Assembly: GCA_043228905.1 (NCBI GenBank)
Contig: JBHGNT010000002.1
Location: 26,722,001-26,786,000, forward strand
From: Azolla caroliniana
Taxonomy: Eukaryota; Plantae; Polypodiophyta
Direction of reading: 5' to 3'
DNA length: 64,000 nucleotides
Of this stretch, positions 2,070 through 47,500 are shown one piece after another; position 1 is the first letter of the stretch; every line of letters starts with the position of its first letter. The notes under the pieces were generated by a model. That model had not been told where the DNA came from and did not search any database. It saw only the letters and a list, made by a program, of their open reading frames with translations. The position numbers and the translations under genes were made by a program.

Positions 2070-3014
2070 TGTTGGAAGACAGGTCCCTCCGGATGGGAAG
2101 GGAGAAGAACAGTGCCGATGAACGAACTCGGCCGAGGCCAATAGGCCGAGGCCGAAACCGTATGAGGAGGACCCGGCTACGGAGAGCCGGATGATACAGA
2201 CCCGGTGAAGACCGGATGAGGAGTACCCGGCTACGGAGAGCCGGATGATACAGACCCGGTGAAGACCGGATGAGGAGTACCCAGCTACGGAGAGCCGGAT
2301 GATACAGACCCGGTGAAGACCGTATGAGGAGGACCCGGCTACGGAGAGCCGGATGATACAGACCCGGTGAAGACCGGATGAGGAGTACCCGGCTACGGAG
2401 ATCCGGATGATACAGACCCGGTGAAGATCGGATGAGGAGTACCCGGCTACGGAGAGCCGAATGATACATACCCGGTGAAGACCGGATGAGGAGTACCCGG
2501 CTACGGAGAGCCGGATGGTGCAGACCCGGTATGAACCGGATAAAGAGACATATTCGTAAATATGTTTTCTGAGAGTTCATCGAGGCTATATTTGTAAATA
2601 GCCGAAAAGTCATATTAGTATAAATATGACTTAGGGCAAACTTTTAGTATCTGTTGTTGTTGTTGTTGTTGTTGTCAATTTTGTTTGTGCAAGAAATAGA
2701 GAGAGCGCGTAACTATGTATAGAGAGAGAGAGAGAAAGAGGTCATTGCCTCTATTGTAACCGCCGCCTGTGGCGAAGATCTGTGAGCACGAGATCGGTGC
2801 CTCAGTGAACTCACTGTTGTATATTCTTACATAGTGACAATTTGCAGCCCGTGGGCTGCCGTGGTTTTTCCCCTAGTTTGGGGTTTTCCACGTAAACATC
2901 CTGTCTACTTGTTTTCTCTCCTTTGTGTCGTGCATTTGTTTCCCGTTTTCTGTGTATGAAAAGAATCTCGGTTGTGGCCGAGCGTTGGACATAAGGAGCC
3001 TTGAGTTCCTGTCA
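2070..3014 (+). mobile_element. Solo LTR (~945 bp), probably Ty1/copia
   Basis: tgttgg...tgtca with perfect TSD taagg (2065-2069, 3015-3019). Carries a TATA-like tataaata near 2620 and gtggtttttccc...gggttttccacgtaaa, a motif common in plant copia LTRs. Confidence 0.75.
2150..2540. repeat. 54-bp tandem repeat, ~7 copies, in LTR U3
   Basis: Unit gaagaccggatgaggagtacccggctacggagagccggatgatacagacccggt, seen as the 18-aa repeat LLIRSSPGLYHPALRSRV in the ORF track. Confidence 0.95.
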
Positions 3015-7084: not shown

Positions 7085-9332
7085 CTACCTTGATTGATGT
7101 CGCCGACCAAACCGGAACTCGATCGGCCGAGACCGATCCGGGCGAAGGCTAAGTCGGCATGATTGGAGGTCGAGGCGAACGAGCCACAACACCCGGTGGG
7201 AGCCGGTGAGCACAAGAAGGAGGCCAAGCATGCACAAGGAGTACGACTCGGTGGGAGGCCAAGTGCGAGAGGAGCCCTCCACATCTATCCTTGAGACTTT
7301 GGCAGTTGCGGATCGACGTAAGACCAAAGAGACGGTGGGTGGCGGCGAGGTGTCGGAGACCGGAACATACGAGGCTACCGGAACGTGTACCCGGTGCGTG
7401 AAGACGGACAAGCATGGCCAAGAGGGCCAAATGGAGACGGAAGAGTGTACGGCAACGAAGGACGAAGAGACCGACGCGGAGGTCGGGTCTACGGTGGATG
7501 AGGTGCGTAATACGAAGTATGCACTACGGCGTAAAACGGAGCATGCACTACGGCCGGCGAAGGGCCAAGAAGCAAGCATGCAGCCGGAAGAGCGGCAACG
7601 AGTGACCGGCAACAGCGGACCGGTCAAGCCTTTGAGAGGCAAGCACGCTGCAAGAGACGGAGCGGTGAGTTGCCGGGATCGGCGGATGAACGACGAAAGC
7701 GGAGGATGGTGCGCGGAGAGCAAAGAGTTATGCACCGGGGAGAAACAAAGCGGCGTCCCGGAGGACATGCGGGGCCAAGCGGGCCAAGAGGATGCGAGTC
7801 GGGATGAAGCGGTAATGAGAGCTGCGAAGAACCCCGACACGAAGGTCGGGATGACGATACGCTCTACTACAAGAGAGCATGGAGAGCAAGGGAGAATCGA
7901 GGTGCACGTAATGGGGTCACCTAAGGAGCAAAGAATGAGGTGCATTCGGAGGAGCCGCAACAAGTGACCGATGATGACGGTCGGAGGAAGCCTTCGAGAG
8001 GCAAGCGCGGGACGACAGACGGCGCAACGAGACGCCAAGACCGACGGAACGAGACGAGCGTGATCGGCATGAACGAAGGATTGTGTCTGGGAAAACGGAG
8101 GAGATGCATGGAGAACGGAGGGTCAAATGGGGCATCCTGATGGATGTGTGCGGCCGAGCGGGCCAGGCGGACCAAGAGGGTGTACCTCGGGGCGAAGCGG
8201 CAACATCGGAGGTTGCGGAGGACACCGAAGACGAGAGCACCGACACGGATGTCGGGGAAGCAAGGTACCTTTTCGAAAGGGTAGGCAGAGCGGAGCAGAG
8301 TGCGAGACATGCGATGTGGCCGCGTAAGGGCCGAGCGATGAGCACGAGGATGATCGACGACGAAGTTCAACGCGCGACAGTGCTGAGTCGAGGAAGCGGC
8401 CGAGGCAAGACATGCGTGGACGAAGAGCACACGGTGTGATATTCGGCAAACAATCGGGAAGAACAAGGATTCGGTCCAAGGTCGCGCACGGAAAACGAAG
8501 GAAGACAAAGAGAGGTTTGCGAAGACCGGGTCTGGCGGACCGGGCGGAGACAATGGTTCAGCGAACTCCGTCGAGTATGGTGGATCGGATGGAGCCGACA
8601 ATTCGAGAGCATACAATGGATATGGCGGACCGGGAGGCTACGGTGGTCCATGTGGGATGGATGGGCTTGCTCGAAGTGGAAGACGAAGTCGGGCAAAGCT
8701 GTCAAAGACGCTAAGGACTCGGTTGATCGCCATGGCCGAAAATCTCACCTCTTTCCCCTTTTTGGCACATGCCGGTGGATGTGCGGTTTTGGAGGGGGTG
8801 GATGTCGTGAAGATTTTCGTCCATAGGGGGAAACTGGGGTAGAATGGGCAAGTTGGTGGTGTGCAACATGTGCACATATATACTAGGAAATGGTGTGTAG
8901 AAATAAGAGGGGAAATTTTATCCCACATTGTAAGGTCCCTCTCTACTTGGGCTATAAAAGGAAGGGAGGGGTCACTTATGAAGGGGTTGCCCATTTTGCG
9001 TATGAGAGGTATACCACTTAGTCTAGAGTTCTTACCGTTTTAGGGTTAGGGTTTTGTTTAGGGTTTTCCTTATTCACCTTCGGTTAGGGTTTTCTCATAG
9101 TCATTTGGTGCGGCCCATGTGGCCACCATTGTTGTAATCATTCGTTTGTTTTAATATATCTTGTTGAGTGTCTTACCTCCGCCGATCGCTCCTTCTATGT
9201 GGTGATCTTATTCTTTCTTCTTCTCCTCTTGAGCTAAGCTTCCAGACATATCTTATTCTTTCTCCTCTACTCCCTAGTCCGAGACCCCCGTCGTCCCGCC
9301 CCTTCTACACGCGAACACGAAACTTCGCGACA
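7085..9332 (+). mobile_element. 3' portion of a Ty3/gypsy-family LTR element (GC-rich, no recognisable pol), with PPT and 3' LTR 8803-9332
   Basis: PPT ggagggggtgga (8791-8802) directly precedes the LTR tgtcgtgaag...cgcgaca. The LTR is clearly homologous to 11206-11707 and is followed by ccgt. Confidence 0.8.
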
Positions 9333-11205
9333 CCGTGCAGGTAATAGCTCCTCCCGGCTCATCTTGTTGTTCCAGTCCACCGTTGTCGAGGTATTCCTCG
9401 CGGATGCGTGGAATGAGGCGGGGTCTCGGGGGTCTTGTACCGAAGAGCAGGAGACAAAGGAGAAGGGAAGGGACCCACTACGTGTGGGCGTAGATTCACA
9501 GGGACACGGCCCTTCGACACAAAGACGCAAGTGGGACACCGACGCAGAGAGACACGAATGTATGTATATATATATTAACAAGGGCAAACAACAAGAAGCG
9601 CGAAGTCGGTTACAACCGAACAGGCCGTCGAACAGATGTCGATGCCTGTTCGTAAACGCTCAGAAAGAAAGGAGTAGGTTGGAGGTGCTGCCGAAAGCAC
9701 TCAGGCATTCCTCAGAGCAGCGCGAGCCTCCCGAAAACCTGCACAGGAAGAAGCTACAGAGTATGGAAGAGAGAGAAGCCTTCGGCCGACAACCCGACAA
9801 CACTTCGTCCTCTCTAACCGCGATCCCCTTCCTCTTCCCCGCCTCCCTCCTTTTATAGGCAAGAAAGGAGTCGTTTCCTATTAACTTCCTACCTACCGAA
9901 TCTACCTACCTAGGATCTTCTATGTACCTAATTCTCTCTTATGTACAACATAAGACGTACGTGCATGAAGAGCCGGTTCATACGCTCCGGTGCACCGATT
10001 CCGCTTGTGGACGGTTTTCTTCACGACACCGTGGCCCATGAGGAGATTGTCTGATCTGTTGGCATGATCGGCTTCTGGCTATACATTAGCTCTGCCGGCA
10101 TGAACCCGGTTACTGAACTATGCGTAGTTTGGTCCACCCACAACGCATAGGGTAAGAGCCGCGGCCAGTTCCCGACATGGCCTCCACACGCCCGTACCAA
10201 TGCTTTGACGATGGGTCCGTGTCCGCGCTCCACCTTCACGTTAGCCTTTGGATTGTACGTCGTGGTGAGAGAGAGTTTAATTCCTAGCTGGTCAAACAAC
10301 TCTTCCACCTCTTGCGCGTCCAATTCCCCGCGGTTGGCCACGATCCTACCTACGCACCCGTACCGGCATACCACTTCTTCGATTAGAAATTGGCACACGG
10401 CCCCGGTCGTTTTGCTCTACAATGCTCGGCCTTCCACCTGGTTCGTCAGGTCCTCCCGAGCCAGCACCAGATACCGCATCTGCCCTACCCCCATCAGCAT
10501 CGTCACCAGATCCACCATCCACTTGAAGTGGATGGTCGGAGGGTAGGTCGGGTGGAGCTCGTCCCGATGTTGGACTATGGAGTGCACCTGACAGCTTTCG
10601 CAAGTCGTCACGAACCGATGCACGTCCCGGTATAGTCCCGGCCACTAGTACTTCCCCTTTAGCTTCTCGAATGTGGCCCACGTCCCGTGGTGTCCGGCCC
10701 AGGGACTCTCGTGGTACGCCGTCAACAATTCTTCTTGTTCCTCTTTCTTCACCATCACTCGGAGCGGGATGCCCTCTCTCTTCTTTGGGTGCTTCCATAT
10801 GCTTCCATCCCATAGAAAGAATTCGTACGCTTTCTTCTGAATCCGGTTGGCCTCTTCCTTCGTCCATGCCGCGTCCGGTGTCATTGCCTTCAGGAACCCG
10901 CCGATCTGGAGCCACTCCCCGTCATACTTGCTCTCGTCGAATTCGTTAAGCGCCGGACTGCTCCCCTTTCTTGTTGTTACGTTGGTTGACCCGAAGAAAT
11001 CCTCGTCGACTTCCTCGTTATCCGAAACCATGCCATCCTGGTCATTGAACTGCGCCCTTGAAAGCATATCGGTTATGGCATTATCTTTCCCGAAGATGTG
11101 TCGTATCTCCGGGTTCAGGGACTTGATGTATGCGATCCACTTGAGCATCACCAGGTCTAGGGTCGCACATCCGGAGATCATACCTAGAATCGGTAGGCAG
11201 TCCGT
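9333..11205 (-). mobile_element. Ty3/gypsy pol fragment (RNase H end, integrase), frameshifted, host of nested insertions
   Basis: TDCLPILGM...WIAYIKSLNPEIRHIFGKDN..DMLSR (RNase H), YHESPWAGH...CESCQ (integrase HHCC), WMVDLV...AREDLTNQVEGRAL...YNPKANVKVERGH (integrase core). Confidence 0.9.
9384..10028 (-). mobile_element. Solo LTR (645 bp) inserted in integrase, 4-bp TSD ccgt
   Basis: Minus strand reads tgtcgtgaag...cctcgaca, with ccgt at 9380-9383 and 10029-10032. The integrase frame rejoins as ISSWAT|VDWNNKMSREELL. Confidence 0.85.
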
Positions 11206-12660
11206 TGTCGTGAATATTTTCGTCCATAGGGGGAAACCAGGGTGGAATGGGCAAGTCAGTGGTGTACAACATGTGCACACGTATACTAGGGAATGGTGTA
11301 TAGAAATAAGATGGGAAATTTTATCCCACATTGTAAGGTCCCTCCCTTCTTGGGCTATAAAAGGAAGGGAGGGGTCACTTATGAAGGGGTTACCTATTTT
11401 ACGTATGAGAGGTATACCACTTAGTCTAGAGTTCTTACCACATTAGGGTTAGGGTTTCAGTTAGGGTTTTCTCATAGTTTGGTGCGGTCCATGCGGCCAC
11501 CATTGTTGTAATCATTCGTTCGTTTTAATATAACTTGTTGAGTTTCTTGCCTCCGCCGATCTCTCCTTCTATGTCATGGTCTTATTCTTTCCTCTTCTCC
11601 TCTTGAGCTAGGCCTCCATATTATGTCTTATTCTTTCTCCTCTACTCCCTAGTCCGAGACCCCCGTGGTCCCACCCCTTCTACACACACGCGCGTAACAA
11701 CGCGACATCTTTGGTGAACCCGACGTGAAGGGTGGCAAGGGAGCATGGAGATGGAAGAAGACTTCGACTTCAACGAGATGATGGCAAAGATTGTGATGGA
11801 AGCCGGACGGAAGATGGCGAAGCGAGATGCGGCTCAACAAGCCGTCAAAAGGGTGGTCAATCGAGTCGACTAGTTCAATGGGAATGAGGTCCTAAAATTT
11901 TTGGGAGCCTACAAGGCCGACATGGTGAAATGGGGCGTGGACGAGGCGATGCGGCTAGAGTATTTTCCTCGAGTGGCGGTCGTATCGGTGCACAAGGAGG
12001 TCAAGGAGCTACGAGAAGCTCATGAGTCGTGGGTGTCCTTTGAGGGAGCCCTATTGGAGGCGTACGGGTACACGGAACCGGAAGGAAGAGGTCGACATGA
12101 GTTCGATCGGTGGGTGGCGTCGGCGAGGCGTCATCGGAGCGCGATGGAGGCATTCCGAGAGTTCAAGCGCCGTTTCTCTCAACTCTCGGAACGAGATCGG
12201 AGATCGGTGGGGGCAGACAAAGTCCTCTTTTTTTTGAAGACGATACATCAAGAGGAGAGGACAGACATCTTATTCGAGCTTCAAGATGATTATGGAGCAC
12301 ATGGTCTCACCGAGGAGTGGTCCGAGGTGGAATGGGTGTGCCGGCAACATGATGTGAGGCGGTCGGCCACAACACGGCCCGCGAGCGGTGGAGAAGAGAG
12401 AGCGGCGAGTGAGTACGCACTACCGCCAGAAGAGAGCTCAACGCCAAAATGGTTTAGAGGAGCTCGACCTAGAAGCACTAATACGGGAGACATGCAAGCT
12501 TGTGAAGGGGAAAATCGAAGCCGAAGAAGGGCTTATTATGGATTCAGGCCGAAGGCGATCGGAGGATGCGGAGGAAGAAGCCTCCTTAAGCGTAGAAGAC
12601 GGGGGCCTATACGGAGGCCAGAAGAGCGTACGACGGCGACATGGGAGAGGGTGCGGAGCA
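11206..12660 (+). mobile_element. 5' LTR (11206-11707), tRNA-Trp PBS and gag of a Ty3/gypsy-family element, truncated
   Basis: LTR tgtcgtgaat...cgcgaca. PBS tggtgaacccgacgtga at 11712-11728 is complementary to the plant tRNA-Trp 3' end. Gag-like ORF from ~11901 (YKADMVKWGV...LEYFPRV...WVSFEGALLEAY). Confidence 0.85.
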
Positions 12661-13599
12661 AGAAAAAGCTCCTTGATCTTCAAGGTGTATGTCGTGATGG
12701 ACATCTCCCTTTGTTGAATGTTGTTAAACTCTTGGCGGAGTTGAAGTCTTCTTGCGGTTGTGTTCACCGCGAAAATCTTTCGTAGATTTTCCCATGCCTC
12801 CTTCGGCGTCTTGGCTTCGCAAATGTAGCCGAGCATGTGATCGTGAACACATGTCGCCAAGCAATACATCACGTGGCTTGCAGCTTGCTCCCATGTCGCG
12901 TATCCGGGAGCCGTTTCGATGGGTCGGTCTTCGTGCACTCCTTTGATGTAGCTCCAATAGCCTTGTCCGACAAGGTATTGGTGCATCTTGTACTCCCAAG
13001 ATGCGAAGTTGTTTCGATCCAACTTCTCGGTAGGGAGAGCGCTCCCCATTTGAGTATTCATTATGTCGATTCTTCTTCTTCTTCTTCTTCTTCTTCTCTC
13101 TTCGAATGCGAGCTATGTAGCGAAGCTACGATGGAGATGAGTTGGTTCTTGGTCGTCGGCATAGGACACAGCGCACGCGGATGGGCTAGATCGAGCTACC
13201 AACCTCGCTCTGATACCATGTAAAGAATCAAGAGATGGATTCTGTGCAACGGAATAGATATGAATTGTGTGTGTGTGTGTGTGTATGAGAGAGACAAGGA
13301 GTAAGACACAGAGAATACGCAAGGTAAAGTATATTAACAAAGGAGAAAGACTCAACATTATACAAGGTGGGAGGAGGGTGCTTTATATAGTCACCCTCTC
13401 TCTTCATTAACTACAAGACTCATGGAGCATGGGGAATGTGAAAGCTCATAAGTTATGTGTCATAGAATATGATTCTATGACTTATACTAAATGCTAGAAT
13501 ACAAAGTGGTGACATAATGGTGACTCTTGACCGTTGGAGTGTCTATTCACTCTCAAGGTGAGTTCACACACTAGACCAAGTTGAGCTTGATTCTCAACA
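12661..13599 (-). mobile_element. Ty1/copia 5' end: LTR (13219-13599), tRNA-iMet PBS and truncated gag
   Basis: Minus strand LTR tgttgagaatc...tttaca followed by tggtatcagagc (13207-13218). Gag reads EKLDRNNFASWEYKMHQYL..QGYW...AKTPKEAWENL (copia gag/UBN2). Confidence 0.9.
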
Positions 13600-15877
13600 G
13601 CACCCAATTCATCTCAGACGCATCGGAAGCTACAGATTGGTTTTCTCTCGCATTCTCTGCCCTAAGATTAGTGGATTTTTGGGGAAACGGTTGACCCCTA
13701 GCAAAGATCTGAACTGTCTTTGTGGGGTTACATGCTAGGAGGTTGTTCTCGAACTCAATGGTTTCTGACCAGTCGTCCACAAGAGGGCTGCCTTCTTGTT
13801 CGTGCACTTTTTGTGTGTATGCTTTGATGCAAAAGGTTTTGTTGTTTTTACGCATATAGATTGTATCGTTCCCAAAATCCATTACAAGGCGGCTTATGCG
13901 TAGGAATGACCTCCCTAGTAAACACTCGTAAGCCACATGATTGGATAATTTTGTGATGATGAAGGTGAGATTGAACTCGACCCCGTGGATAGTGAAGTAG
14001 TGTGCCGGGATCATGCCTTTTGGCCATTGGATGGACCCATCTGCCATTCGGATTTTGACGTCTGAAGGAAGCATTTTTGGGCTCCCCCACTTACACCAAC
14101 ATTCATAGTTGACTATACTTACCCTTGCTCAAGTGTCAATGATCACATCACACGTCGTGCCGTTGATGCAGACGGGGAGAGTGAAACTAGTATCGTCGCT
14201 CTCGAAGTGAGCTTCACATATATCTACTGGTGTTCCTTCAGGTTGTTTAGGGATTGTGGTAGTATGAGGGACATGGGTGTGTATCTTTTCTCCGTAACCT
14301 GCTGATAGGCCTCCGTTGAGGTGGCAAAGGACATCGTGCCATGGTTGGATGTCGAGTTTGAGCAGCTCTTCAAGTGTGAACTATATTTCCTTGGCGAGGA
14401 TAGGTCGTAGGTGGGGCTTGTCAATCACGAAGGTGCCGGTGTAGCTCTGTACTTCGCGTAATGTGAGACATAATTTTAAATTTAATATTTGATGGAGCAG
14501 GGTCATGTTGACTTCTTTGATTGGGGTAGGTTGGGAGATGGTGGTGTCTGTTGGTGTTACGACGAGGGAGGGTGTATCCATGTGTTGGGGTGGAGGATTT
14601 ACCCATTCTTCGAGTTGGTCGAAGTTTAGGCTCGGGAGACTAAGCGATCCTTTGAACTATTCGTGTCATATGAGTTTGATGTACTCTTCGACCTTTTGTT
14701 TTTCAGCCGCTGGGTTTCGGTATGCTGCTAGGTGTGTTGGTAGCCCTTGGTTAGGGTTGACGAGTGTTGTTTCTACATCTCCCTCCGATTCTTGCTCTTG
14801 CTTTGAGGTCTGCGTGGATACATTTTTTTTGGATTTTCGTCTCTTACGCATAGTCGTGGGGAGGCCTTGGTCGTGATACTTTAAATTATGAGCTACTCTT
14901 TGAGTTCGTGTGATGACGTTGGCGCCAACCGTTGATGGTACGATGGATAACATATTTGCACTAATCCGTTTCTTTTTTTCTGGGCAATCAGGTACTAAGT
15001 GTTCTTTACCACACCCTGTGCATGATGCTTCTCTTTGGAACCACTCGATAAGCTTGTGTGACTGTTGGGTGAGACTTTGTACCGGTGGTTGTGGGGGTGT
15101 TTCGAGTGGGTGGTGTCGTGGTCGTTGTGCCATCCGGTTGTAGTACTCATGTTTGGTTGGGCACTCGCTAATCATGTGTGGGCCTTGGCAATTGAACATT
15201 TCAATTCTGAGCTTCTTAGACCATTATTATTGCGATATCCCATCGACAGGCCCCTTTGTTCTCCTCTCAAGATGTACACTAGTATTTGGTCGCCTTCGAA
15301 GTCAACGAAGTGGGAAAGCACCTCTTCTTCAACATCATACTCCCAGTATGAGTCTTCATATTCGGGGACGCCCCACCCAACCTAAGTTTGGTTATCGATG
15401 CCGTATTCTAGTTCGGCAAGACGAGCGCCAATACGCGGTACTGGGGTTGTTGGGGAAGTATTTCTGGTAGTTGTGAGCAGCTAAGCAGTGGAGGTGAGTG
15501 TGGGTGCTCGACCATTGGTGTTTGGCTATACCTTCCGTTTGGGGCTTGCCAGCAGTTCTCTTGAGAATGCATCACGAAGGCTTTGCACCAATTACAGTAT
15601 TGCAGCTATTGTTGGTGGAGGAGAGGGCACTCATGCCCCATGTGATGGCCATGGCACACCGTACACCTTGCATTTTCTCTTTGGCGTATGCTTCGGGTCT
15701 TTCTATACGGGGTGGTCTCGGTGGCGTGGGTGGAGTGGGATCCGAGGACTTCTCACGGTTGTTCATAGGCGCTTGAGTGGGTATCCGTAACCCACTCATT
15801 GAATCTTCGAAAGTCATCATTACTGTGCAAGCTTTAGCGCGAATGACCGACACATCCTGGCAATCAGGAAATTTTGA

Positions 15878-16285: not shown

Positions 16286-17134
16286 TAAAAAACTTCTTGT
16301 TTTTCAAATAAAAGAGGTTTTTTAAACATGAACTCAAATTATACTAAAATCTATGTTTTTACAAGAGAAAAGGATACATATCGATCTTGCAAAGATGTAT
16401 GTTGCACAACAAGATACCTTATGGTGAACATGTGCTTCATTGATTAACAAAAAAACATTAATAATTGTATTGATGGTAATTGAACTTCGCAAATGCCATT
16501 TACTTCACAAATTTTGTAGGGGAATTCTCAAAAGGAAGAAGAGGATAAAAGTTTAGATACCTTGATAACTGTGTGATATGTTCAAATTGATATATTAATG
16601 TTCACATCTAAAGTTTGACAGTTTTGACACTTTATGAATATCATCTACATTTTAGGAGTTGTGGATTTATCAAAATTGTTTATGAATATGGTCTACATTT
16701 CTTGAGTTGTGAATTTTCGGATGTTAATGAGCACTAAATTTATAGATGATGACAGTAAAGATTGCAATGTTACCTCTTATACTTACAACATTTTCAAGTC
16801 TAACAAAAGATGTAATCTTAATCTCATCAAGATGGTGAAACCATTTATCTTAACTTGTGCCTTGAGTTAACCATTGTGATTTTCTTTAAGTTAACTACAT
16901 TTTATATATGCAAACCATCAAAATTTAAACATTTACTTAAAAACTATTCAATTTTAGAAATTATCATTTTGAAACTTGTTAAATCTCAAAAATTTAGCAA
17001 ATTTTACATGCTATTTAAAACATGTGATACTGGTGTATCAAGTTTTTGAAAATGGTCTAAAATTGCAAGATTATAAAAGGAATCTATAAATGGAATGCGT
17101 GATCCTTCCACTTGTGAACGCGAACGTGTTGTTT

Positions 17135-17302
17135 GGCAAACTTTGACCTTTCGTCGAAAGATGTGGGTTCATCGAACTTTGATCTTTCGTCGAAGGATGT
17201 GGGTTCGTCGAAAGATGATCTTTCGTCGAACTTTGTGGGTTTGGCAAACTTTGATCTTTCGTCGAAGGATGTTCTCTTGTCGAACTTGATCTTTCGACGA
17301 AC
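17135..17302. repeat. Short tandem repeats (~36 bp, degenerate) of actttgatctttcgtcgaaggatgtgggttcgtcga
   Basis: Direct reading. Appears as repeated NFDLSSKDVGSS in the ORF track. Confidence 0.85.
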
Positions 17303-18240
17303 TCTGAGCGGGAAATTTGAATGTTTTTGGCGCCAACGGCAATTTCGTGTCCCATAGGATGATCGAAATCAGCGAGAATCGCGGTGATCACTTTTGCCCT
17401 GCAACGGCTAAATCTCAACAATGTTGTGTTAACCGGACGAATAGCTTGCTAATGTCCGGGCGATTAAGGGGGGGGGGGGGGAATTAAAACTAAACAAAAC
17501 TGAAAATTAACTTAATAAAAATGTGAAGTAGTGAAAATTTTAATTAACATGGTTTCCTTTCTATTTCTTCCCTCGTTAAGTGGGTTGCCTACGAGTGTTT
17601 GATCACTCGAACTCGGCTTCAAGCGTCAGTCGTATCCCCGGCAACGGCACCAAATAGATGTGTAGGATCTATGTATCGATGGAGTTAACTCCTCGATGTC
17701 ATTCGTAGAATTCGGACCGGCGTATACCCTTTTAATGGCGAATCGGGTGGAGATGGTTGTCGGACACCTCTGAGCCTCACACTCACTTAACGATTAGTAG
17801 ATGATTAAGCACAATATCTCTCTCACTCTCTCAAGCTCGCTCTCATAAACAATAGGGTAATGAACGTAGACAATAAGTGTAATGAATATGTTATTAACCC
17901 TCTTTATTAAGAGGTCTAGCACCAACAAGGAAGAGAGATTAGTATTCTCTAACTAAACACTTCACTAATCTCTCTTAAGCTTAAAGGTTACAAGAAGGAG
18001 GAGAGGAAGCTCTAGCTCTTAATCAATAGGGAGATCTTTACAAATGGAAGAACCCTTACAAAGCCACCACCATGTGGTTTATATAGCATTTACATTTAGG
18101 GTATGGACCTTTCACACTTGGATCTCCCTTAGCCCTCTTTCCTCTTGTCATTTCCTCTTCGTAGGTCCTTTAGCCATACTACGTCCTTGTTGATGCGCTC
18201 TTCTTCATTACCGGTCGTGGTGCGATCCAAGCGCTTAACA

Positions 18241-33816: not shown

Positions 33817-36800
33817 TGTAACACATCCGATGTGTTGAGGGGTTCCATGATTGGAACCACAACACCCCACCTCGACGGATTGAGGTGAGGGCCTTTCTCG
33901 ACGGATAGAGAAGGCGCCCATGACTTGAGGTAAGAGTCATGGCCTTCTAAGTCTTCTCGATGGATGGAGAAGACACCCATGACTCAAGGTGTGAGCATGG
34001 GGCTTATGGTACATGTACCATTCCCAAGGTAAGGTGCACATGGGGAATGTGACATCTAGTGCATCTAATACCATAGTACTCAAGTACCTAAGTGGGGAAA
34101 GGGAATCTCCCTAGGCATTTGAATAATCTTTAAATGAAGTCAACTACCTATGTGGAAGAAGGGAATCTCCCTAATGACTTTTATTAAATACCATTAGGAC
34201 GGATGTAAGGTACTTATGTACTATATGGGAAACTTATGAGAGAAAAGGAGGATCTTGTATATAAGTTGGACAGAGGGTGGTTGGGCGGAGTTCAACATAT
34301 CCAAGTTCTCTCCCTTAATTATATTTTCCCTTAGTCAAAAAACGTAGACACGCGAGTTCGAATCCAATCGGCGATCCACCCTTATCGTGAAATTTCGGTG
34401 GTGTTACATGGTATCAGAGCGAACTCACTAAAACTACACTTGCGGCTTGTGGGAATCGTGAATCTTAAGGTAGTATCCTTTCAAATAGCTACAATGGAGC
34501 TCGAGATGCCCAAATTTTGGAGAATTTCATTTGGGATTGCGAGCAATTCTTCCTAGCCGCCCATATCCTCAAGGAGGCGGACCTAGTCTTCCATTGCTCA
34601 ACCTTCTTGGCCGGGGATGCTAAACTATGGTGGCGCAACTTCGTGGATGATAGCATTCGACAAAAGGGGCCCATGCCCGTGAATACGTGGGAAGAATTAA
34701 AGGAAGCTCTCAATAAACAATTTCTTCCTTCTAATTCCGAGTGGAAGGCTCGCCAACAACTTGATCTACTTCGTCACACGGGCCATATCAAGGATTATAT
34801 TAAATCCTTTCAGGCTCTTATGTTACAAATCCGCTCCATGGGAGAAGAAGATCGTTTCTTTGCGTTTACCAACCGATTGAAAGAGTGGGCCCAAAACGAG
34901 CTACGCCGACAAAATGTAACGACTCTTGCGGCCGCTTACGAAGCGGCGGATCGCCTGACCGATTGGCATTCTCAAGGTGGCTCCTCCGATGGCAAAGACA
35001 AAGAAAAGAGGGGTCCTCCAAATTTGAAGGCACACAATACTCATCCCTTCAAGAAGGTGGCTTATAATTCTCAAGGAGGTGGATCTCGACCCCCCATCAA
35101 TGGCCAAAATGTTGCAAAGAAGTTTCCTTCCGCGAAGACCACGAATGTGAATTCCTTCAAGCCTAAGGATGTTGCCGTGAAAAGGAAGTTTGAATGTTTC
35201 ATTTGCCAAGGTGACCATTTCGCTAGAGATTGCCCTCTCAAAGGCCAACTCCACTCACTTGTTAAGGCTTCGGATGACGACGCGAATGATCGAACCATGG
35301 GGCACATCAAGCGTTTGTGTGCGTTTCGTGAGGTAAAGAGTGAGCATTCATTACTTTATGTTAGTGCTCTAATCAATGGTCGTTTGTGTCAAGCGATGGT
35401 GGATACGGGTGCGTCTCACGAATTCATGACGCCGACCCTCGCCAAAGCATGTGGGCTACGTATGGAGGTGAATTCCAAGGGCACTTGGAAGACCGTCAAC
35501 GGAAAGGAGGAGCAAGTGGGGCGGATTGCTCCTAATGTTGTGGTTACTATTGGAGAGGTGACCGTGCGCGTTGAATTTAGCATCGTCGAGATGGACGATT
35601 TTGATGTGGTTTTAGGTCAATCTTGGGCGAGATTGGCGCGCGCACTACCCTACCCTTTTGGTTTCAAGACGTCATGCCCAACACTTTACCAAAGGAGTTG
35701 CCTCCAAAAAGAGAGGTTGATCATCACATCGAGGTGGTGCCGGGATGCACTCCTCCCGTGAAGAGTCCTTATCGCTTAAGCGTTGCCGAGAATGCGGAAT
35801 TAAAGCATCAACTTAACGAGCTATTAGAGGCGGGATTCATACGCCCTTCTAGATCTCCTTATGGTGCCCCGGTGCTCTTCGTCAAGAAGAAGGATGGAAG
35901 CTTGAGAATGTGCGTCGATTATCGAGCATTGAACAAGCTCACTATCAAGAATCGTTACCCTCTCCCCAACCTTTGAGAGATGTTCGACCAACTAGGGAAG
36001 GCGCGGTACTTCACCAAGATGGATCTTCGTTCGGGATACTATCAAGTGAGGATCGCCGAAGGTGATGTGGAGAAAACCTCCATGCGAACACGATATGGCT
36101 CATATGAGTGGCTCGTAATGTCGATGGGCTTAACCAATGCCGTAGCAACCTTTAGTACACTCATGAATCAAGTGTTTGGGCCGGAGCTCGACAAATGCAT
36201 TGTGGTCTACCTCGACGACTTGCTTGTCTTTAGCCCTACTTGGGACCAACACTTGAAGGATGTTGAGATGGCTCTCCAAATATTAAGGGAGAACCATCTC
36301 TATGTGAAGAAATCCAAATGTGACTTTGGTGTGGAAGAAGTGTACTTCCTCGGCTTCAAAATAGCTCGTGGTGAGCTACAACCCGAAGAGGAAAAGCTTC
36401 ATGCAATCAAGGAATGGCCTACTCCTCTTTCTAACCTTACTCCTCGACTCTCTACTCCTCTTTCTAACCTTACTAAAAGTGGGAAAAAGTGGTTTTGGTG
36501 TGACAAGTGTGCTTGTGCTTTTGATGCCTTAAAAGAGGCATTGTGCACGGCGCCATGCTTGGCGCTACCCGACTTTGACAAGCCCTTTGAGCTTCATATT
36601 GATGCATCCGATTATGCCATGGGTGGAGTGCTCATGCAAGAAGGAAGGCCGGTGGCATTTGAGAGCAAGAAGCTCATGGATCGGGAGACGCGATACCCCA
36701 CCCATGAGAAGGAGATGGCGGCCATCGTCCATTGTCTTCGTACATGGAGGCATTACTTGATGGGGAGGCACTTCACCGTCCACACGGATAACATCACATC

Positions 36801-39052
36801 AACGTACTTTGCTTCACAACCAAAACTCACCGCAAAGCAAGCTCGGTGGCAAAGACTTCCTTGCCGGTTATGATTTCGACCTCAAGTACAAGCCCGGAAA
36901 GCAAAATGTGGTAGCCGATGCTCTTAGTCGAAGGGCCCATTTGGCGGTCATGCATGTGTTGGTTGATACTAATATGTTGCCAACCCTCAAGAGTGCACAT
37001 CATGGTGATGAATATGCACAAAAGTGTCTTCGTTCGTTTGCTAATGGTGAAAAGGTGACCCACCTATCTCTCAAAGATGGGGTGATCTACTTCAAGCAAC
37101 AAATACTCTATGTACCTCAAGTAGTGAGGAAAGAAGTAATGTATGAGTGTCATGACACATTGTGGACCGGACACCCCGGTGGGGATAAAACCATGGAAAT
37201 GTTGACTCGTAGGTACTTTTGGCCACACATGGACCAAGAAGTTCAAGCCTATGTGAGAGGATGCCAAGTGTGCCAACAAGACAAAGCCGAAAGATGCAAG
37301 CCCGCGGGATTGCTTCAACCCTTAAGCATCCCGAATCAACCATGGGAATCCCTTAGCATGGACTTCATAATAAGCTTGCCGGAGAGCCAAAACTACACGG
37401 GTATCTTCGTCGTCGTGGATCGACTTACGAAGTATGCTCACTTTGTGGCCTATGAAAGCCCCGCGAATGTTGAGTATGTGGCAAAACTTTTCTTTGCCAA
37501 TGTATTCAAATACCACGGTCTCCCAAGAGAGATTATTAGCGATCGTGATAGCCGCTTCACCGGTAAATTTTGGTCCACACTTTTTGCTTTGATGGGTACT
37601 AACCTCAAGTTTAGTAGTTCCTATCACCCACAGACTGATGGTCAAACGGAGAGGACTAATCAAATATTGGAGGATTACCTTCGCCATTATGTTAGCTTGG
37701 ATCAAAAGGATTGGTCCCAATACCTTGACATAGCGGAGTTCTCCTACAACCTCCATAAGCAAGATTCCACAGGATTTAGTCCCTTTGAACTCAATTATGG
37801 GTTCCAACCTTTGTCTCCCGGAGACCTTATGGCGTTACCCTTAGCTAGCATTGTTCCAAGTGCCAACATCACAATGAATAGGTGGTCCACTCGCCTCAAC
37901 CAAGCTAATGAGGCTATGGAGAAGGCTCAAGCTCGGTACAAGAAATATGCTGACCTCAAACGTAGGCATGAAGAATATGAAGTGGGTGACTTAGTGTTCG
38001 TCAAATTGGATAGCGAACAATTTATTCTTCCAAAGGGTATCACTCCAAAGCTTGCTCGACTGTACGATGGTCCCTTTCCCATCATCAAGAAATGATCTCC
38101 TTTGACTTACAAAGTCAAGCTACCGGAACACATGGGTGTTCATCCGGTGTTTCACATTTCCTTGCTCAAGAGGAGCTACATGGATGAAAACCATGAGGAA
38201 ATGGCGGTTCGAAGGGGTCCCGCTTTGGTGATTGACAAAGGTAGCGACTACGTCTTGGAGGCCATCCTTCGTCATTGGGATCGACCAAACCAAAATGGGC
38301 CTAATAGGCTCTACTATTGCCAATGGAAAGGCAAACCCACGGAAGAGAACTCGTGGCAACAAGGCGTGACCTTGTGGCAATTTGAAGATGTGGTTAATGC
38401 ATACAACTCCCATCACCCTTTTAAAATGAAAAGGGGACGCCTTCTTCAAAGGGGGGAATTGTAACACATCCGATGTGTTGAGGGGTTCCATGATTGGAAC
38501 CACAACACCCCACCTCGACGGATTGAGGTGAGGGCCTTTCTCGACGGATAGAGAAGGCGCCCATGACTCGAGGTAAGAGTCATGGCCTTCTAAGTCTTCT
38601 CGATGGATGGAGAAGACACCCATGACTCAAGGTGTGAGCATGGGGCTTATGGTACATGTACCATTCTCAAGGTAAGGTGCACATGGGGAATGTGACATCT
38701 AGTGCATTTAATACCATAGTACTCAAGTACCTAAGTGGGGAAAGGGAATCTCCCTAGGCATTTGAATAATCTTTAAATGAAGTCAACTACCTACGTGGAA
38801 GAAGGGAATCTCCCTAATGACTTCTATTAAATACCATTAGGACGGATGTAAGGTACTTATGTACTATATGGGAAAACTTATGAGAGAAAAGGAGGATCTT
38901 GTATATAAGTTGGACAGAGGGTGGTTGGGTGGAGTTCAACATATCCAAGTTCTCTCCCTTAATTATATTTTCCCTTAGTCAAAAAACATAGACATGCGAG
39001 TTCGAATCCAATCGGCGATCCACCCTTATCACGAAATTTCGGTGGTGTTACA
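33817..39052 (+). mobile_element. Full-length Ty3/gypsy chromovirus (Galadriel-like), inactivated
   Basis: LTRs 33817-34408 and 38460-39052 (tgtaac...gttaca), TSD tcccc, PBS tggtatcagagc (34409-34420), PPT before 38460. Contains gag (ENFIWDCEQFF..DAKLWWR, CFICQGDHFARDC), protease (VDTGAS), RT (YLDD), RNase H, integrase and chromodomain. Confidence 0.97.
34517..38464 (+). pseudogene. gag-pol polyprotein of the chromovirus, with stops, frameshifts and deletions
   Basis: Split into ORFs 34517-35761, 35623-35976, 35980-36873, 36809-38095 and 38102-38464. In-frame TGA at 35974 and 38093. The last segment has a chromodomain (YVLEAILRH...YYCQWKG..EENSW). Confidence 0.93.
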
Positions 39053-44574: not shown

Positions 44575-47500
44575 ATGGCGACTACCTTCGCCAAGCCCGA
44601 GAATGCTCTCAAGCGCGCTGAAGGTAGGGTTTCTGCTTGCTGTCCTCGTCCCCTTCCCTTCCTCTATCTCCTCTTTCTTACTTGAAAATTCATGCTCGTT
44701 TTACGTCTATGTATCTATGTCCATCCCTGTGCGAGATCGGAGCAGAGTTAGCAACCTATATTGCACTGGGAAAGATAACTTTTACAAGCTTCACGTTTGC
44801 TGTTAGACTTTGGATTTTTAAGTGTTTTAGTTACTCTCGTTTTTTGGTGTTTTACCTTTAACGGGCTCGAAAACTAGTACTTTCTCCTTCATTCACCTCC
44901 ATAGAGACGGGATACGATGTCCTACATATTATTAGATCTTACCGTATATATCAATATTAACTCTGGTTGTTGTATGATTCCTTGAATTAACTTGAGAAGT
45001 ATGGGAGATTACACGCTCACATGTAAATAAATCAGAGTTTGAATGCCGTATTTCTCATTGACCTAACTTGAAAACTATTGGAGCTGATATTACCTTTGTT
45101 GTAGATCTTTTTACGTATGTGCAAATCAAACTTTCAATGTTTTTTTATGTTTCCTTTAAATGACAAACTTTGGGAGATTGTTTTTCATATATGCATGTTA
45201 GATTTCAAATAACGATTTATGTTCCCTAGAAATGTCTAAAAAGCGATGAGCTGTAGTTTTCTCTTCACCTTTCACCCTATTACTTAGATGAAGACCTACA
45301 GGAAATAGTCTACATATTTGATCTTTCTACATGTACAAATTGGGGTGCTTCGATAACGATTATACAAATGAGAGTTTAGGCTTATTCTTCTCAGCATTTT
45401 AGTGTGGGACATGGACAACATATTATATATTTCTACATGTAAAAGATGGACTTTTCATACTGTTGCATGCTTCCTTGAAATCGAAATGGCTTGAGTACCA
45501 TAGATTTGGTGCTTGCATACTAGATCTTACCACATGTACCAATTAGACTTCAAATGCAGCACCATATTTAAAATGTTGTTTGGTTACTCAAAGTGAATTG
45601 TGAAGAATGAGAATTGTGGTATGAACATTCGGTAGTCTACATGTTCAGGTTATCCTTTGGATGTTGTATGCTTTTTTACTTCAAGCCTGGCAGCTACAGG
45701 AAAATTGCATGCGTGTTAACAATTATAGGATGATCTATAGGGGAAATGGTCTGAATTCATTGTCTTTCTAACAACACAAATCAGCCTTGGATAGCAGAGG
45801 TTAACTGTAGCATTTGGTATAAATGGTGGATGATCACAATTTTTTTGGAACTGAGTTGCTACCACTGTTTTGTAAGATTCCTGAAACTGAAATTAAAGAG
45901 AGTTTTCCTCAAGAAGATGCTCATCCATGCCTGAAAGATACTGGAATTGATGTGAGTGAATGACTATTGACTGTCATCCAGTGATAATTGAGCCGTTGGA
46001 GAGTTTTAACTTAATTCATTACAGTTTGGTTCAAATTTTAGTTTATATGCCCATATTTTCAATCCAAAAGAGCTATTATCAAAGCATTGCTGAATGGAAA
46101 GAGGAGCTTCACAAGCTATCCATGTCTTTTGGAAATTCTTCCCCCATTCTTTTTGGAACTGAGTTGCGACCATTGTTTTGTAAGCTTCCTGAAATTGAAA
46201 TTAAAGAGAGTTTTCCTCAAGAAGATGCTCATCCAAGCTTGAAAGATACTGGAAACTTGATTCATTACGGTTTGGTTCAAATTTTAGTTTATGTCCCCAT
46301 ATTTTTAATCCAAAAGAGCTATTATCAAAGCATTGCTGAATGGAAAAAGGAGCTTCACAAGCTATTCACGTCTTTTGGAAATTCTTCCCCCATTCAAGTG
46401 TTCTAACATTTAGCACTTCTGTTTACTTAATCCTGAAATCTCTTTTTGGTTGGGCTTCTAATTTTGCTTTATTTTCTTTCGTAGAGCTTATGAACGTTGG
46501 ACAAAAGCAAGCAGCCTTGCAAGCTTTGCACGACCTCATCACCTCAAAGCGTTACCGAGCATGGCAGAAAACCTTGGAAAAAATCATGTTCAAGTATATC
46601 GAACTATGTGTCGATATGAGAAAGGGCAGATTTGCCAAAGATGGGCTTATTCAGTACCGTATTGTATGCCAGCAAGTCAATGTTTCTTCACTGGAAGAAG
46701 TTATAAAATATTTTTTGCAACTCTCAAGTGAGAGAGCAGAGAAAGCCCAGGCGCAAGCAACAGCTGAAGTTACCTTGGATGTTGAGGATCTGGAGGCTGA
46801 GAAGAGGCCTGAAGATCTGATGGTTAGTTATGTCAGTGGTGAGAAAGGAAAAGAACGATCTGACAGAGAATTAGTTACCCCTTGGTTCAAATTTCTTTGG
46901 GAGACATATCGCACAGTGTTAGAAATTCTAAGGAACAACTCCAAATTGGAAGCCCTATACGCAGTAAGGTTTCTTGGGCCATCCACTATGTATAATGATT
47001 CTTATTTTTAATCTTCTTGTTTTTTAATGATTACATTTTATGCAGATGACTGCACATAGAGCTTTCCAATTTTGTCTTCAATACAAGAGAACAACCGAAT
47101 TTCGAAGACTGTGTGAAATTCTCCGCAATCATTTGAGCAATCTCAACAAGTATAGGGACCAAAGAGATAGGCCTGACCTGACATTGCCTGAGAGTCTGCA
47201 GCTATACCTTGATACCAGATTTGAACAACTAAAGGTTGCAACTGAACTAGAACTATGGCAGGTATTGGAAAGATCGTCTTAATACCTCTTTTGGCATTTT
47301 GCAATCTCAATTATAAAACTTTCCCTCAGTTCGTTTGGCTAGTCATCTTCTTCTTAGTATTTTCTCACATAATGATGTATGAAATTCTATTTATAACCAG
47401 GAAGCCTTCCGATCAGTGGAGGATATTCATGGTCTCATGATAATGGTTAAAAAGAGTCCAAAGCCTCAGATGATGGCTGTTTATTATGCAAAGTTGACAA

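What the first reader, a model, noticed from the sequence alone, without database searches (positions are those of the whole stretch)
8803..11728. Three separate LTR insertions all land at CCGT within 1.9 kb of one gypsy pol: sequence-specific targeting with a 4-bp TSD
Seen: the 3' LTR ending at 9332 is followed by ccgt. The minus-strand solo LTR 9384-10028 is flanked by ccgt on both sides, and the duplication does not extend to 5 bp. The 5' LTR starting at 11206 is preceded by ccgt. All three LTRs begin tgtcgtgaa, end cgaca and share cgagacccc near the 3' end, but they are diverged from each other. Established: most plant LTR retrotransposons make 5-bp TSDs with weak sequence preference. Inference: this lineage has an integrase preferring a CpG-centred CCGT/ACGG site, which would steer it into CpG-rich related elements and build self-nests.
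Basis: partly seen in the sequence, partly recalled or inferred. Interest (0 to 1): 0.72.

Follow-up and report, generated by a model that had tools for sequence, protein, structure and literature searches.

The report
CpG-targeting moss-type retrotransposon nest
These jumping genes insert almost only at a CG pair and copy four bases when they land, a habit already described for the moss Phygy group to which they likely belong; that all three hits here read CCGT is likely chance, since ACGT is the commonest site genome-wide.

Summary
In detail: three LTR junctions sit at CCGT in one gypsy pol, and the solo LTR has a 4-bp, not 5-bp, duplication. Genome-wide, 4,655 of 5,722 LTR starts not preceded by the PPT follow NCGN (background 3.7% of 4-mers). 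ACGT (1,418) outnumbers CCGT (586) and ACGG (559), and NCGA is avoided (214), so the rule is roughly VCGB, not CCGT. Of 37 two-sided sites, 20 match exactly at 4 bp and 14 with one mismatch; none fits 5 bp. The elements have a tRNA-Trp PBS, RT-RH-INT order, and no chromodomain or aRH. Neumann et al. 2019 give Phygy as 4 bp, NCGN, tRNA-Trp, so the targeting is known; a REXdb tree was not run. The host pol is collinear with 11 uninterrupted copies and is a sister family, so this is a self-nest, probably of three insertions. Nesting is 25 of 108 junctions against 11% of random CG sites and 6% of random positions: CpG density explains about half. None of the 8 earlier scan notes shown (of 39 that fit) concerns this targeting.

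The parts
7102..8802 (+). Internal 3' part of element X (family A, non-autonomous; no pol found in two LTR-to-LTR relatives), cut off at its 5' side; ends in the PPT at about 8791-8802
   Evidence: blastn collinear with L073, L075, L076; junction at 7102; ORF scan
8803..9332 (+). LTR A, 3' LTR of element X
9333..9336 (+). Target 4-mer CCGT at site A; ACGG in host sense at the homologous place in 7 of 11 uninterrupted host copies
9333..9383 (-). Host pol, integrase part downstream of site B
   Evidence: ungapped match 43-47 of 51 to 11 host copies
9380..9383 (+). TSD copy (CCGT) of solo LTR B
9384..10028 (-). LTR B, solo LTR of family B (autonomous relatives about 7 kb, pol 81-84% identical to the host pol)
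10029..10032 (+). TSD copy (CCGT) of solo LTR B; host copies hold this 4-mer once (overlap -4 in 11 of 11)
10033..11205 (-). Host pol, end of RNase H to integrase core, two in-frame stops; family H (about 7 kb, same PBS and PPT, LTR starts TGTCGTGGAG)
11202..11205 (+). Target 4-mer CCGT at site C; ACGG in host sense in 9 of 11 host copies
11206..11707 (+). LTR C, 5' LTR of element Y (family A)
11712..11728 (+). Primer binding site complementary to the 3' end of tRNA-Trp(CCA)
11729..12662 (+). 5' internal part of element Y (gag-like), cut off at 12662 against a copia fragment

Best explanation
This is a self-nest of Phygy-like Ty3/gypsy retrotransposons that insert at CG-centred sites with a 4-bp duplication (rule roughly VCGB, best ACGT), likely because their integrase bends and reads the central CG, and the three CCGT junctions are likely three separate insertions into a CpG-rich sister element. 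Shown: 4-bp TSD, CG centre, avoidance of T at the first and A at the last place, no strand bias, tRNA-Trp PBS, collinear host, nesting excess. Inferred: (1) a symmetric integrase multimer cuts 4 bp apart and kinks the central pyrimidine-purine step, as in the foamy virus intasome, with added base-specific reading that narrows YR to CG; (2) TG/CA-centred flanks are later methyl-C decay of CG; (3) family A, which has no pol, uses the integrase of family B/H in trans through the shared LTR ends; (4) B became a solo LTR by LTR-LTR recombination, and later deletions removed the outer parts of X, Y and the host; (5) elements hold 2.1-2.5 times the genome's CpG density and so draw extra hits, with survival bias or chromatin adding the rest.
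For: Genome-wide exact counts: 9,040 LTR starts (reversed control 7); 3,318 follow GGA, the PPT end; 4,655 of the other 5,722 follow CGN and 5,394 follow YRN; background NCGN 3.7% of 4-mers in 400 kb from 40 fixed stretches. ACGT 1,418, CCGT 586, ACGG 559, NCGA 214 (4.6% vs 34% background). TSD length: 24 solo LTRs, 15 exact, 7 one mismatch, 2 two or more at 4 bp; 13 LTR-to-LTR elements, 5 exact, 7 one mismatch, 1 two; 0 of 37 within one mismatch at 5 bp. In 27 of 27 two-sided sites not picked for their flank, at least one copy has CG in the centre; 12 of 14 single mismatches are C>T or G>A in CG or CHG context (read by eye). PBS: 4 of 4 tested genomic matches are tRNA-Trp(CCA). Pfam: RT-RH-INT, no chromodomain, no aRH at E<=0.05. 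Named relatives: Riccia 54-59% and Adiantum 53% for RH-INT; many Physcomitrium patens proteins at 34-63% for the gag-side ORF. Host collinear, 4-mers present at all three places. A and C share 0 rare states where true LTR pairs share 4-7, and do not group in the tree. Literature: PMC6317226 passages and supplement file 3; PMC4422553 passages.
Against: No tree with labelled REXdb Phygy sequences. LTR-to-LTR family B and H copies are 5.3-7.3 kb, below Phygy's 7.7-10.0 kb. The AU test does not reject A+C as one clade (p=0.096), and 9.4% divergence could also come from one old element. X, Y and the host have lost their outer ends, so sites A and C have only one TSD copy each. Nesting exceeds the CpG-site null about twofold (25 of 108 vs 11% raw, 9% class-weighted; p 0.012 and 0.001), which CpG density alone does not explain. 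No biochemical evidence here for the integrase. Counts cover only LTRs with the exact 14-base start (LTR C and family H are missed), and the last C of a left TSD copy can decay to T before the LTR's TG, slightly inflating NCGT.
Confidence: 0.85

Rival explanations
1. The integrase specifically recognises CCGT/ACGG.
For: Three of three window sites are CCGT; CCGT and ACGG are each about 2.4-fold over their background share.
Against: Only 1,145 of 4,655 NCGN starts are CCGT or ACGG; ACGT is 1,418. All three families sampled use several NCGN words.
Confidence: 0.02
2. Junctions 9333 and 11205 come from one family A element, doubled or rearranged (tandem duplication, or uncoupled joining of the two ends), not from two insertions.
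For: A and C are one family, on one strand, facing as 3' end then 5' end; both outer ends are lost; both LTRs have similar long branches (0.047, 0.053); AU p=0.096.
Against: The host piece between them is collinear with 11 uninterrupted copies, with no internal permutation. A-C identity 90.6% is below all 13 true LTR pairs (93.9-99.4%). They share 0 rare states, and differ at the U5 end (ACTTCGCGACA vs ACAACGCGACA). Y's end and X's start are 1.26 kb apart in L073.
Confidence: 0.12
3. Beyond the CG rule, the integrase or a partner actively targets methylated, element-rich chromatin, so self-nesting is a directed strategy.
For: 25 of 108 junctions lie in clade elements against 11% (bootstrap 4-19%) of random CG sites; seen in both samples (8 of 41 genome-wide, 16 of 59 on C1; 1 of 8 in random stretches).
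Against: No chromodomain. Old insertions are filtered by selection, which favours those inside other elements. 59 of 108 junctions come from the first 12 Mb of one contig, and the control rests on 40 stretches. Three quarters of insertions are not nested in the clade.
Confidence: 0.2
4. The lineage is a sister clade of Phygy (or another non-chromovirus branch) that shares the targeting, not Phygy itself.
For: Shorter elements than Phygy; closest named RH-INT hits are liverwort and fern proteins, none from P. patens among 107 hits.
Against: TSD length, NCGN motif, tRNA-Trp PBS and lack of extra domains all match Phygy's row; gag-side ORF hits many P. patens proteins.
Confidence: 0.15

Closest known systems
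Phygy clade, non-chromovirus Ty3/gypsy (Neumann et al. 2019, PMC6317226; passages and supplement file 3 read)
   Same: 4-bp TSD (100%), NCGN preference, tRNA-Trp PBS (81%), no chromodomain, no aRH.
   Different: Here about 7 kb rather than 7.7-10.0 kb; several families including a pol-less one; motif resolved to VCGB with ACGT on top; a genome other than the P. patens-sized set described (organism not identified).
TatI and Selgy (same table)
   Same: 4-bp TSD; TatI also uses tRNA-Trp.
   Different: TatI carries aRH (none found here); Selgy uses tRNA-Ala; the paper gives no TSD motif for either.
Prototype foamy virus and gammaretroviral intasomes with 4-bp TSD (Serrao et al. 2015, PMC4422553; passages read)
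   Same: 4-bp stagger, central YR step, T disfavoured at the first and A at the last TSD place (PFV consensus VYRB).
   Different: Their preference is weak (YR up about 63%) and accepts any YR; here the centre is almost always CG.
Drosophila ZAM integrase (Faye et al. 2008, PMC2527525; abstract only)
   Same: Gypsy-type integrase with CG-containing target (CGCGCg), reported to bind and nick it in vitro.
   Different: Insect element with a longer alternating CG motif; no relationship tested here.
Nesting surveys of plant LTR elements (Jedlicka et al. 2019, PMC6911290; passages and section 6 read)
   Same: 4-bp TSDs have GC-rich centres; nested sites are GC-richer; gypsy autoinsertions occur.
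   Different: It reports Phygy inside Tcn1 in P. patens and does not list Phygy among families with evident autoinsertion; no CpG-site null was seen in the parts read.

Membership tests
Ty3/gypsy | LTRs TG...CA, PBS, PPT, pol order RT-RH-INT | tested here: met
Phygy | Phylogenetic placement of RT/RH/INT in the REXdb Phygy clade (the formal definition) | not testable with these tools
   No labelled REXdb sequences on hand; only indirect hits to P. patens, Riccia and Adiantum proteins
Phygy | 4-bp TSD | tested here: met
   34 of 37 two-sided sites within one mismatch at 4 bp, 0 of 37 at 5 bp
Phygy | NCGN target motif | tested here: met
   4,655 of 5,722
Phygy | tRNA-Trp PBS | tested here: met
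   (4 of 64 matches tested, 4 of 4 tRNA-Trp CCA)
Phygy | No chromodomain and no aRH; polyprotein spans nearly all of the internal part | tested here: met
   Pfam at E<=0.05 on 6 ORFs; pol ORF ends about 70 bp before the PPT in L118. Tested on family B and H copies; family A lacks pol
Phygy (descriptive trait, called of little weight for classification in the paper) | Length 7.7-10.0 kb | tested here: inconclusive
   B and H copies are 5.3-7.3 kb, most about 7.0 kb, just under the range from one species
TatI | aRH domain | tested here: not met
   no second RNase H family hit
Selgy | tRNA-Ala PBS | tested here: not met
   PBS is tRNA-Trp
Chromoviruses (Tcn1, Galadriel, Tekay, Reina, CRM) | Chromodomain at the integrase C-terminus | tested here: not met

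The most novel reading that the evidence does not exclude
A plant gypsy integrase with a near-absolute CpG requirement that also prefers methylated CpG or element chromatin, while its own CpG-rich body serves as a decoy landing pad: the clade would steer its copies into itself and away from genes, a chromodomain-free safe-harbour strategy testable with a purified integrase.
Probability: 0.15. Interest if true: 0.6.

Novelty: new member of a known kind. Interest (0 to 1): 0.2.

Why it matters
The targeting rule is published for Phygy as one sentence and one table row. This genome adds thousands of sites that sharpen it (VCGB, ACGT best, near-absolute CG centre) and a first rough measure of self-nesting against a CG-site null. 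If the excess nesting were active targeting of methylated CpG, it would be a new route by which a retrotransposon avoids genes, and a CG-specific integrase would be a good model for how intasomes read bases. As found, it is a clean example of a known trait.

Tried and rejected
CCGT-specific targeting: rejected by counts. 5-bp TSD: rejected; by contrast the other gypsy in the window (33817-39052) has a 5-bp TCCCC duplication and a Met-type PBS. Permuted or tandem-duplicated host piece: no internal junction. First LTR-end caller left 52 of 141 starts without an end; the revised one left 31 of 137; these were used for left flanks only, not for TSD length. L038 is a solo LTR (ACGT both sides) that misfiled as a 5' LTR; it is not among the 24 solos. 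The site A end printed came from an alignment whose offsets were re-checked without gaps. From 128 junctions, 20 were dropped before the nesting count (window's own, second ends of counted elements, off-centre finds in loci picked for host pol), leaving 108. AU test of A+C was inconclusive. Paper searches: 'Phygy' 18 papers; 'NCGN' 93 papers, the 20 listed unrelated; searches listed nothing on a Phygy integrase mechanism (listings only). PMC7466625 passages had no target-site data; PMC12885004 passages report Phygy in a liverwort, enriched at centromeres. Neumann's per-element file was not among the supplements held as text, so their Phygy TSD spectrum could not be compared. No structure or complex prediction was run.
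Full report
Observation. LTR A (8803-9332, +) follows a polypurine tract and is followed by CCGT. LTR B (9384-10028, -) has CCGT on both sides and the match stops at 4 bp. LTR C (11206-11707, +) is preceded by CCGT and followed by a PBS. A and C are one family (90.6% identity, 3 indels). B is another family sharing only the ends and the CGAGACCCC box.

Anatomy. The DNA between the LTRs is a minus-strand pol piece from the end of RNase H into the integrase, with two in-frame stops. It matches 40 other places at 89-92% (only 40 of 5,440 candidates were scored). In 11 of 11 such copies examined the two host pieces around LTR B overlap by exactly 4 bases, and the 4-mer ACGG (host sense) stands at the homologous place in 9, 6 and 7 of 11 copies for sites C, B and A; the others show ATGG, ATAG, ACAG or ACGA (L062 and L063 look like one sequence assembled twice). 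So the 4-mers are host target sequence and the host is collinear. The host family is about 7 kb with the same PBS and PPT and near-identical LTR start. Family B copies are about 7 kb with a pol 81-84% identical to the host pol; family A copies L073 and L075 are 4.7-4.9 kb with no match to the host pol. Element X runs 7102-9332 and element Y 11206-12662; both have lost their outer ends.

One event or several. A-C identity is below all 13 true LTR pairs (93.9-99.4%). A and C share no rare state, true pairs share 4-7 and group in the tree, A and C do not; the AU test does not formally reject them as a clade (p=0.096). I put three independent insertions at about 85%.

Target rule. The window lies in a 523-Mb genome. 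The 14-base LTR start occurs 9,040 times (reversed control 7). Of these 3,318 follow GGA, the PPT end of 3' LTRs. Of the other 5,722, 4,655 (81%) follow CGN and 5,394 (94%) follow YRN. NCGN is 3.7% of 4-mers in 40 fixed 10-kb stretches, so the enrichment is about 22-fold. Within NCGN: ACGT 1,418, CCGT 586, ACGG 559, NCGA 214, against background shares of 5.3%, 5.0%, 5.0% and 34%. CCGT and its reverse complement are equal, as expected of a symmetric integrase complex. In 70 junctions not picked for their flank, C and G fill the two central places in 91% each, T is 4% at the first place, and outside the 4-mer only a mild C excess is seen next to it. The rule is about VCGB, best ACGT.

TSD length. 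Of 24 solo LTRs 15 match exactly at 4 bp, 7 with one mismatch, 2 with more; of 13 LTR-to-LTR elements 5, 7 and 1; none of 37 comes within one mismatch at 5 bp (10 of the solos were picked for a CG on the left). In the 27 unpicked sites at least one copy always has CG in the centre, and 12 of 14 single mismatches are C>T or G>A in CG or CHG context (read by eye). The TG/CA-centred flanks are therefore best read as later methyl-cytosine decay (inference), which would make the CG requirement near absolute.

Why three CCGT. The 1.22-kb host stretch holds 88 NCGN sites, among them 9 CCGT and 1 ACGG on the plus strand. With sampled preferences, three hits are all CCGT with probability 1.3% and all the same 4-mer with 3.6%. 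Among thousands of insertions such a trio is expected somewhere.

Self-nesting. Thirteen elements carry 78-93 CpG per kb against 36.6 in the random stretches. With one blastn procedure, 25 of 108 insertion flanks lie in clade elements, against 278 of 2,500 random CG sites (11%, bootstrap over stretches 4-19%; 9% when weighted by site class) and 89 of 1,500 random positions (6%). CpG density gives about half of the fourfold excess. The rest (p 0.001-0.012) may be survival bias, regional clustering or chromatin; 59 of the 108 come from the first 12 Mb of C1 (16 nested), 41 from genome-wide blast hits (8 nested), 8 from random stretches (1 nested).

Classification. The PBS is complementary to tRNA-Trp(CCA): the pattern found 64 places and 4 of 4 tested are tRNA-Trp genes. 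Pfam finds RT, RNase H, integrase and a weak SH3 hit, and no chromodomain or second RNase H, in 6 ORFs. Named homologues are from Riccia and Adiantum for RH-INT and include many Physcomitrium patens proteins for the gag-side DUF4100 ORF. Neumann et al. 2019 (PMC6317226; passages, supplement file 3) list Phygy as 186 elements, 4-bp TSD in 100%, NCGN, tRNA-Trp 81%, 7.7-10.0 kb, and name it the one lineage with a sequence preference. TatI (aRH), Selgy (tRNA-Ala) and chromoviruses fail a defining test. It works like Phygy on every trait tested; formal membership needs a REXdb tree that I could not run, and the elements here are a little shorter.

Mechanism. Shown: 4-bp stagger, CG centre, symmetric flank bias. 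From literature: 4-bp-TSD retroviral intasomes bend the target at a central YR step and disfavour T first and A last (PFV consensus VYRB; PMC4422553 passages), and the Drosophila ZAM integrase binds and nicks a CGCGCg site in vitro (PMC2527525 abstract). Inferred: this integrase uses the same geometry with added reading of CG; family A borrows it in trans; solo LTR formation and later deletions produced today's layout. My paper searches (listings) showed no study of the Phygy integrase itself.

Verdict. Real, well supported, and essentially known: a new set of Phygy-like families with NCGN targeting. The CCGT specificity is wrong. New here are the sharper motif and a modest, unexplained twofold nesting excess. 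Earlier scan notes: a word look-up found none; a genome look-up showed 8 of 39 fitting notes, all on other lineages, and none bore on this reading. Interest 0.2.

Noticed in passing
window 33817-39052 (+): A young gypsy element with 98% identical LTRs, Met-type PBS, gag-protease-RT-RH-INT hits and a 5-bp TCCCC duplication; an internal contrast to the 4-bp clade.
   Followed up: partly
window 12663-13600 (-): Copia 5' fragment (gag Pfam hit, Met-type PBS near 13209-13219) fused directly to the cut end of element Y at 12662.
   Followed up: partly
G000 C8:17.797-17.823 Mb, C5:10.106-10.112 Mb, C16:4.99-5.11 Mb: Clusters of tRNA-Trp 3'-end matches, on C8 at about 1.2-kb spacing; 64 matches in all. 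Possibly tandem tRNA-Trp gene arrays, the primer this abundant clade uses. The arrays themselves were not scanned.
   Followed up: no
TSD pairs in L079, L082, L083, L141: TSD mismatches at the base touching the LTR fit CHG-methylation decay created by the LTR's own TG/CA ends.
   Followed up: partly
window 2103-2601 and 17131-17310: Tandem arrays of 54-bp and 36-bp units inside repeat-like DNA.
   Followed up: no
window 46340-47011 (+): ORF with a strong eIF3a domain hit, a host gene exon.
   Followed up: no
L032, L143: Clade LTRs inserted into the CG-rich U5 end of another clade LTR (flanks read as reverse LTR ends), a possible local hotspot.
   Followed up: no
L117:4794-5897 (-): The gag-side ORF of the host family matches Pfam DUF4100 below its cut-off, and many homologues carry that domain, so DUF4100 is probably part of Phygy-like gag/protease.
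   Followed up: partly
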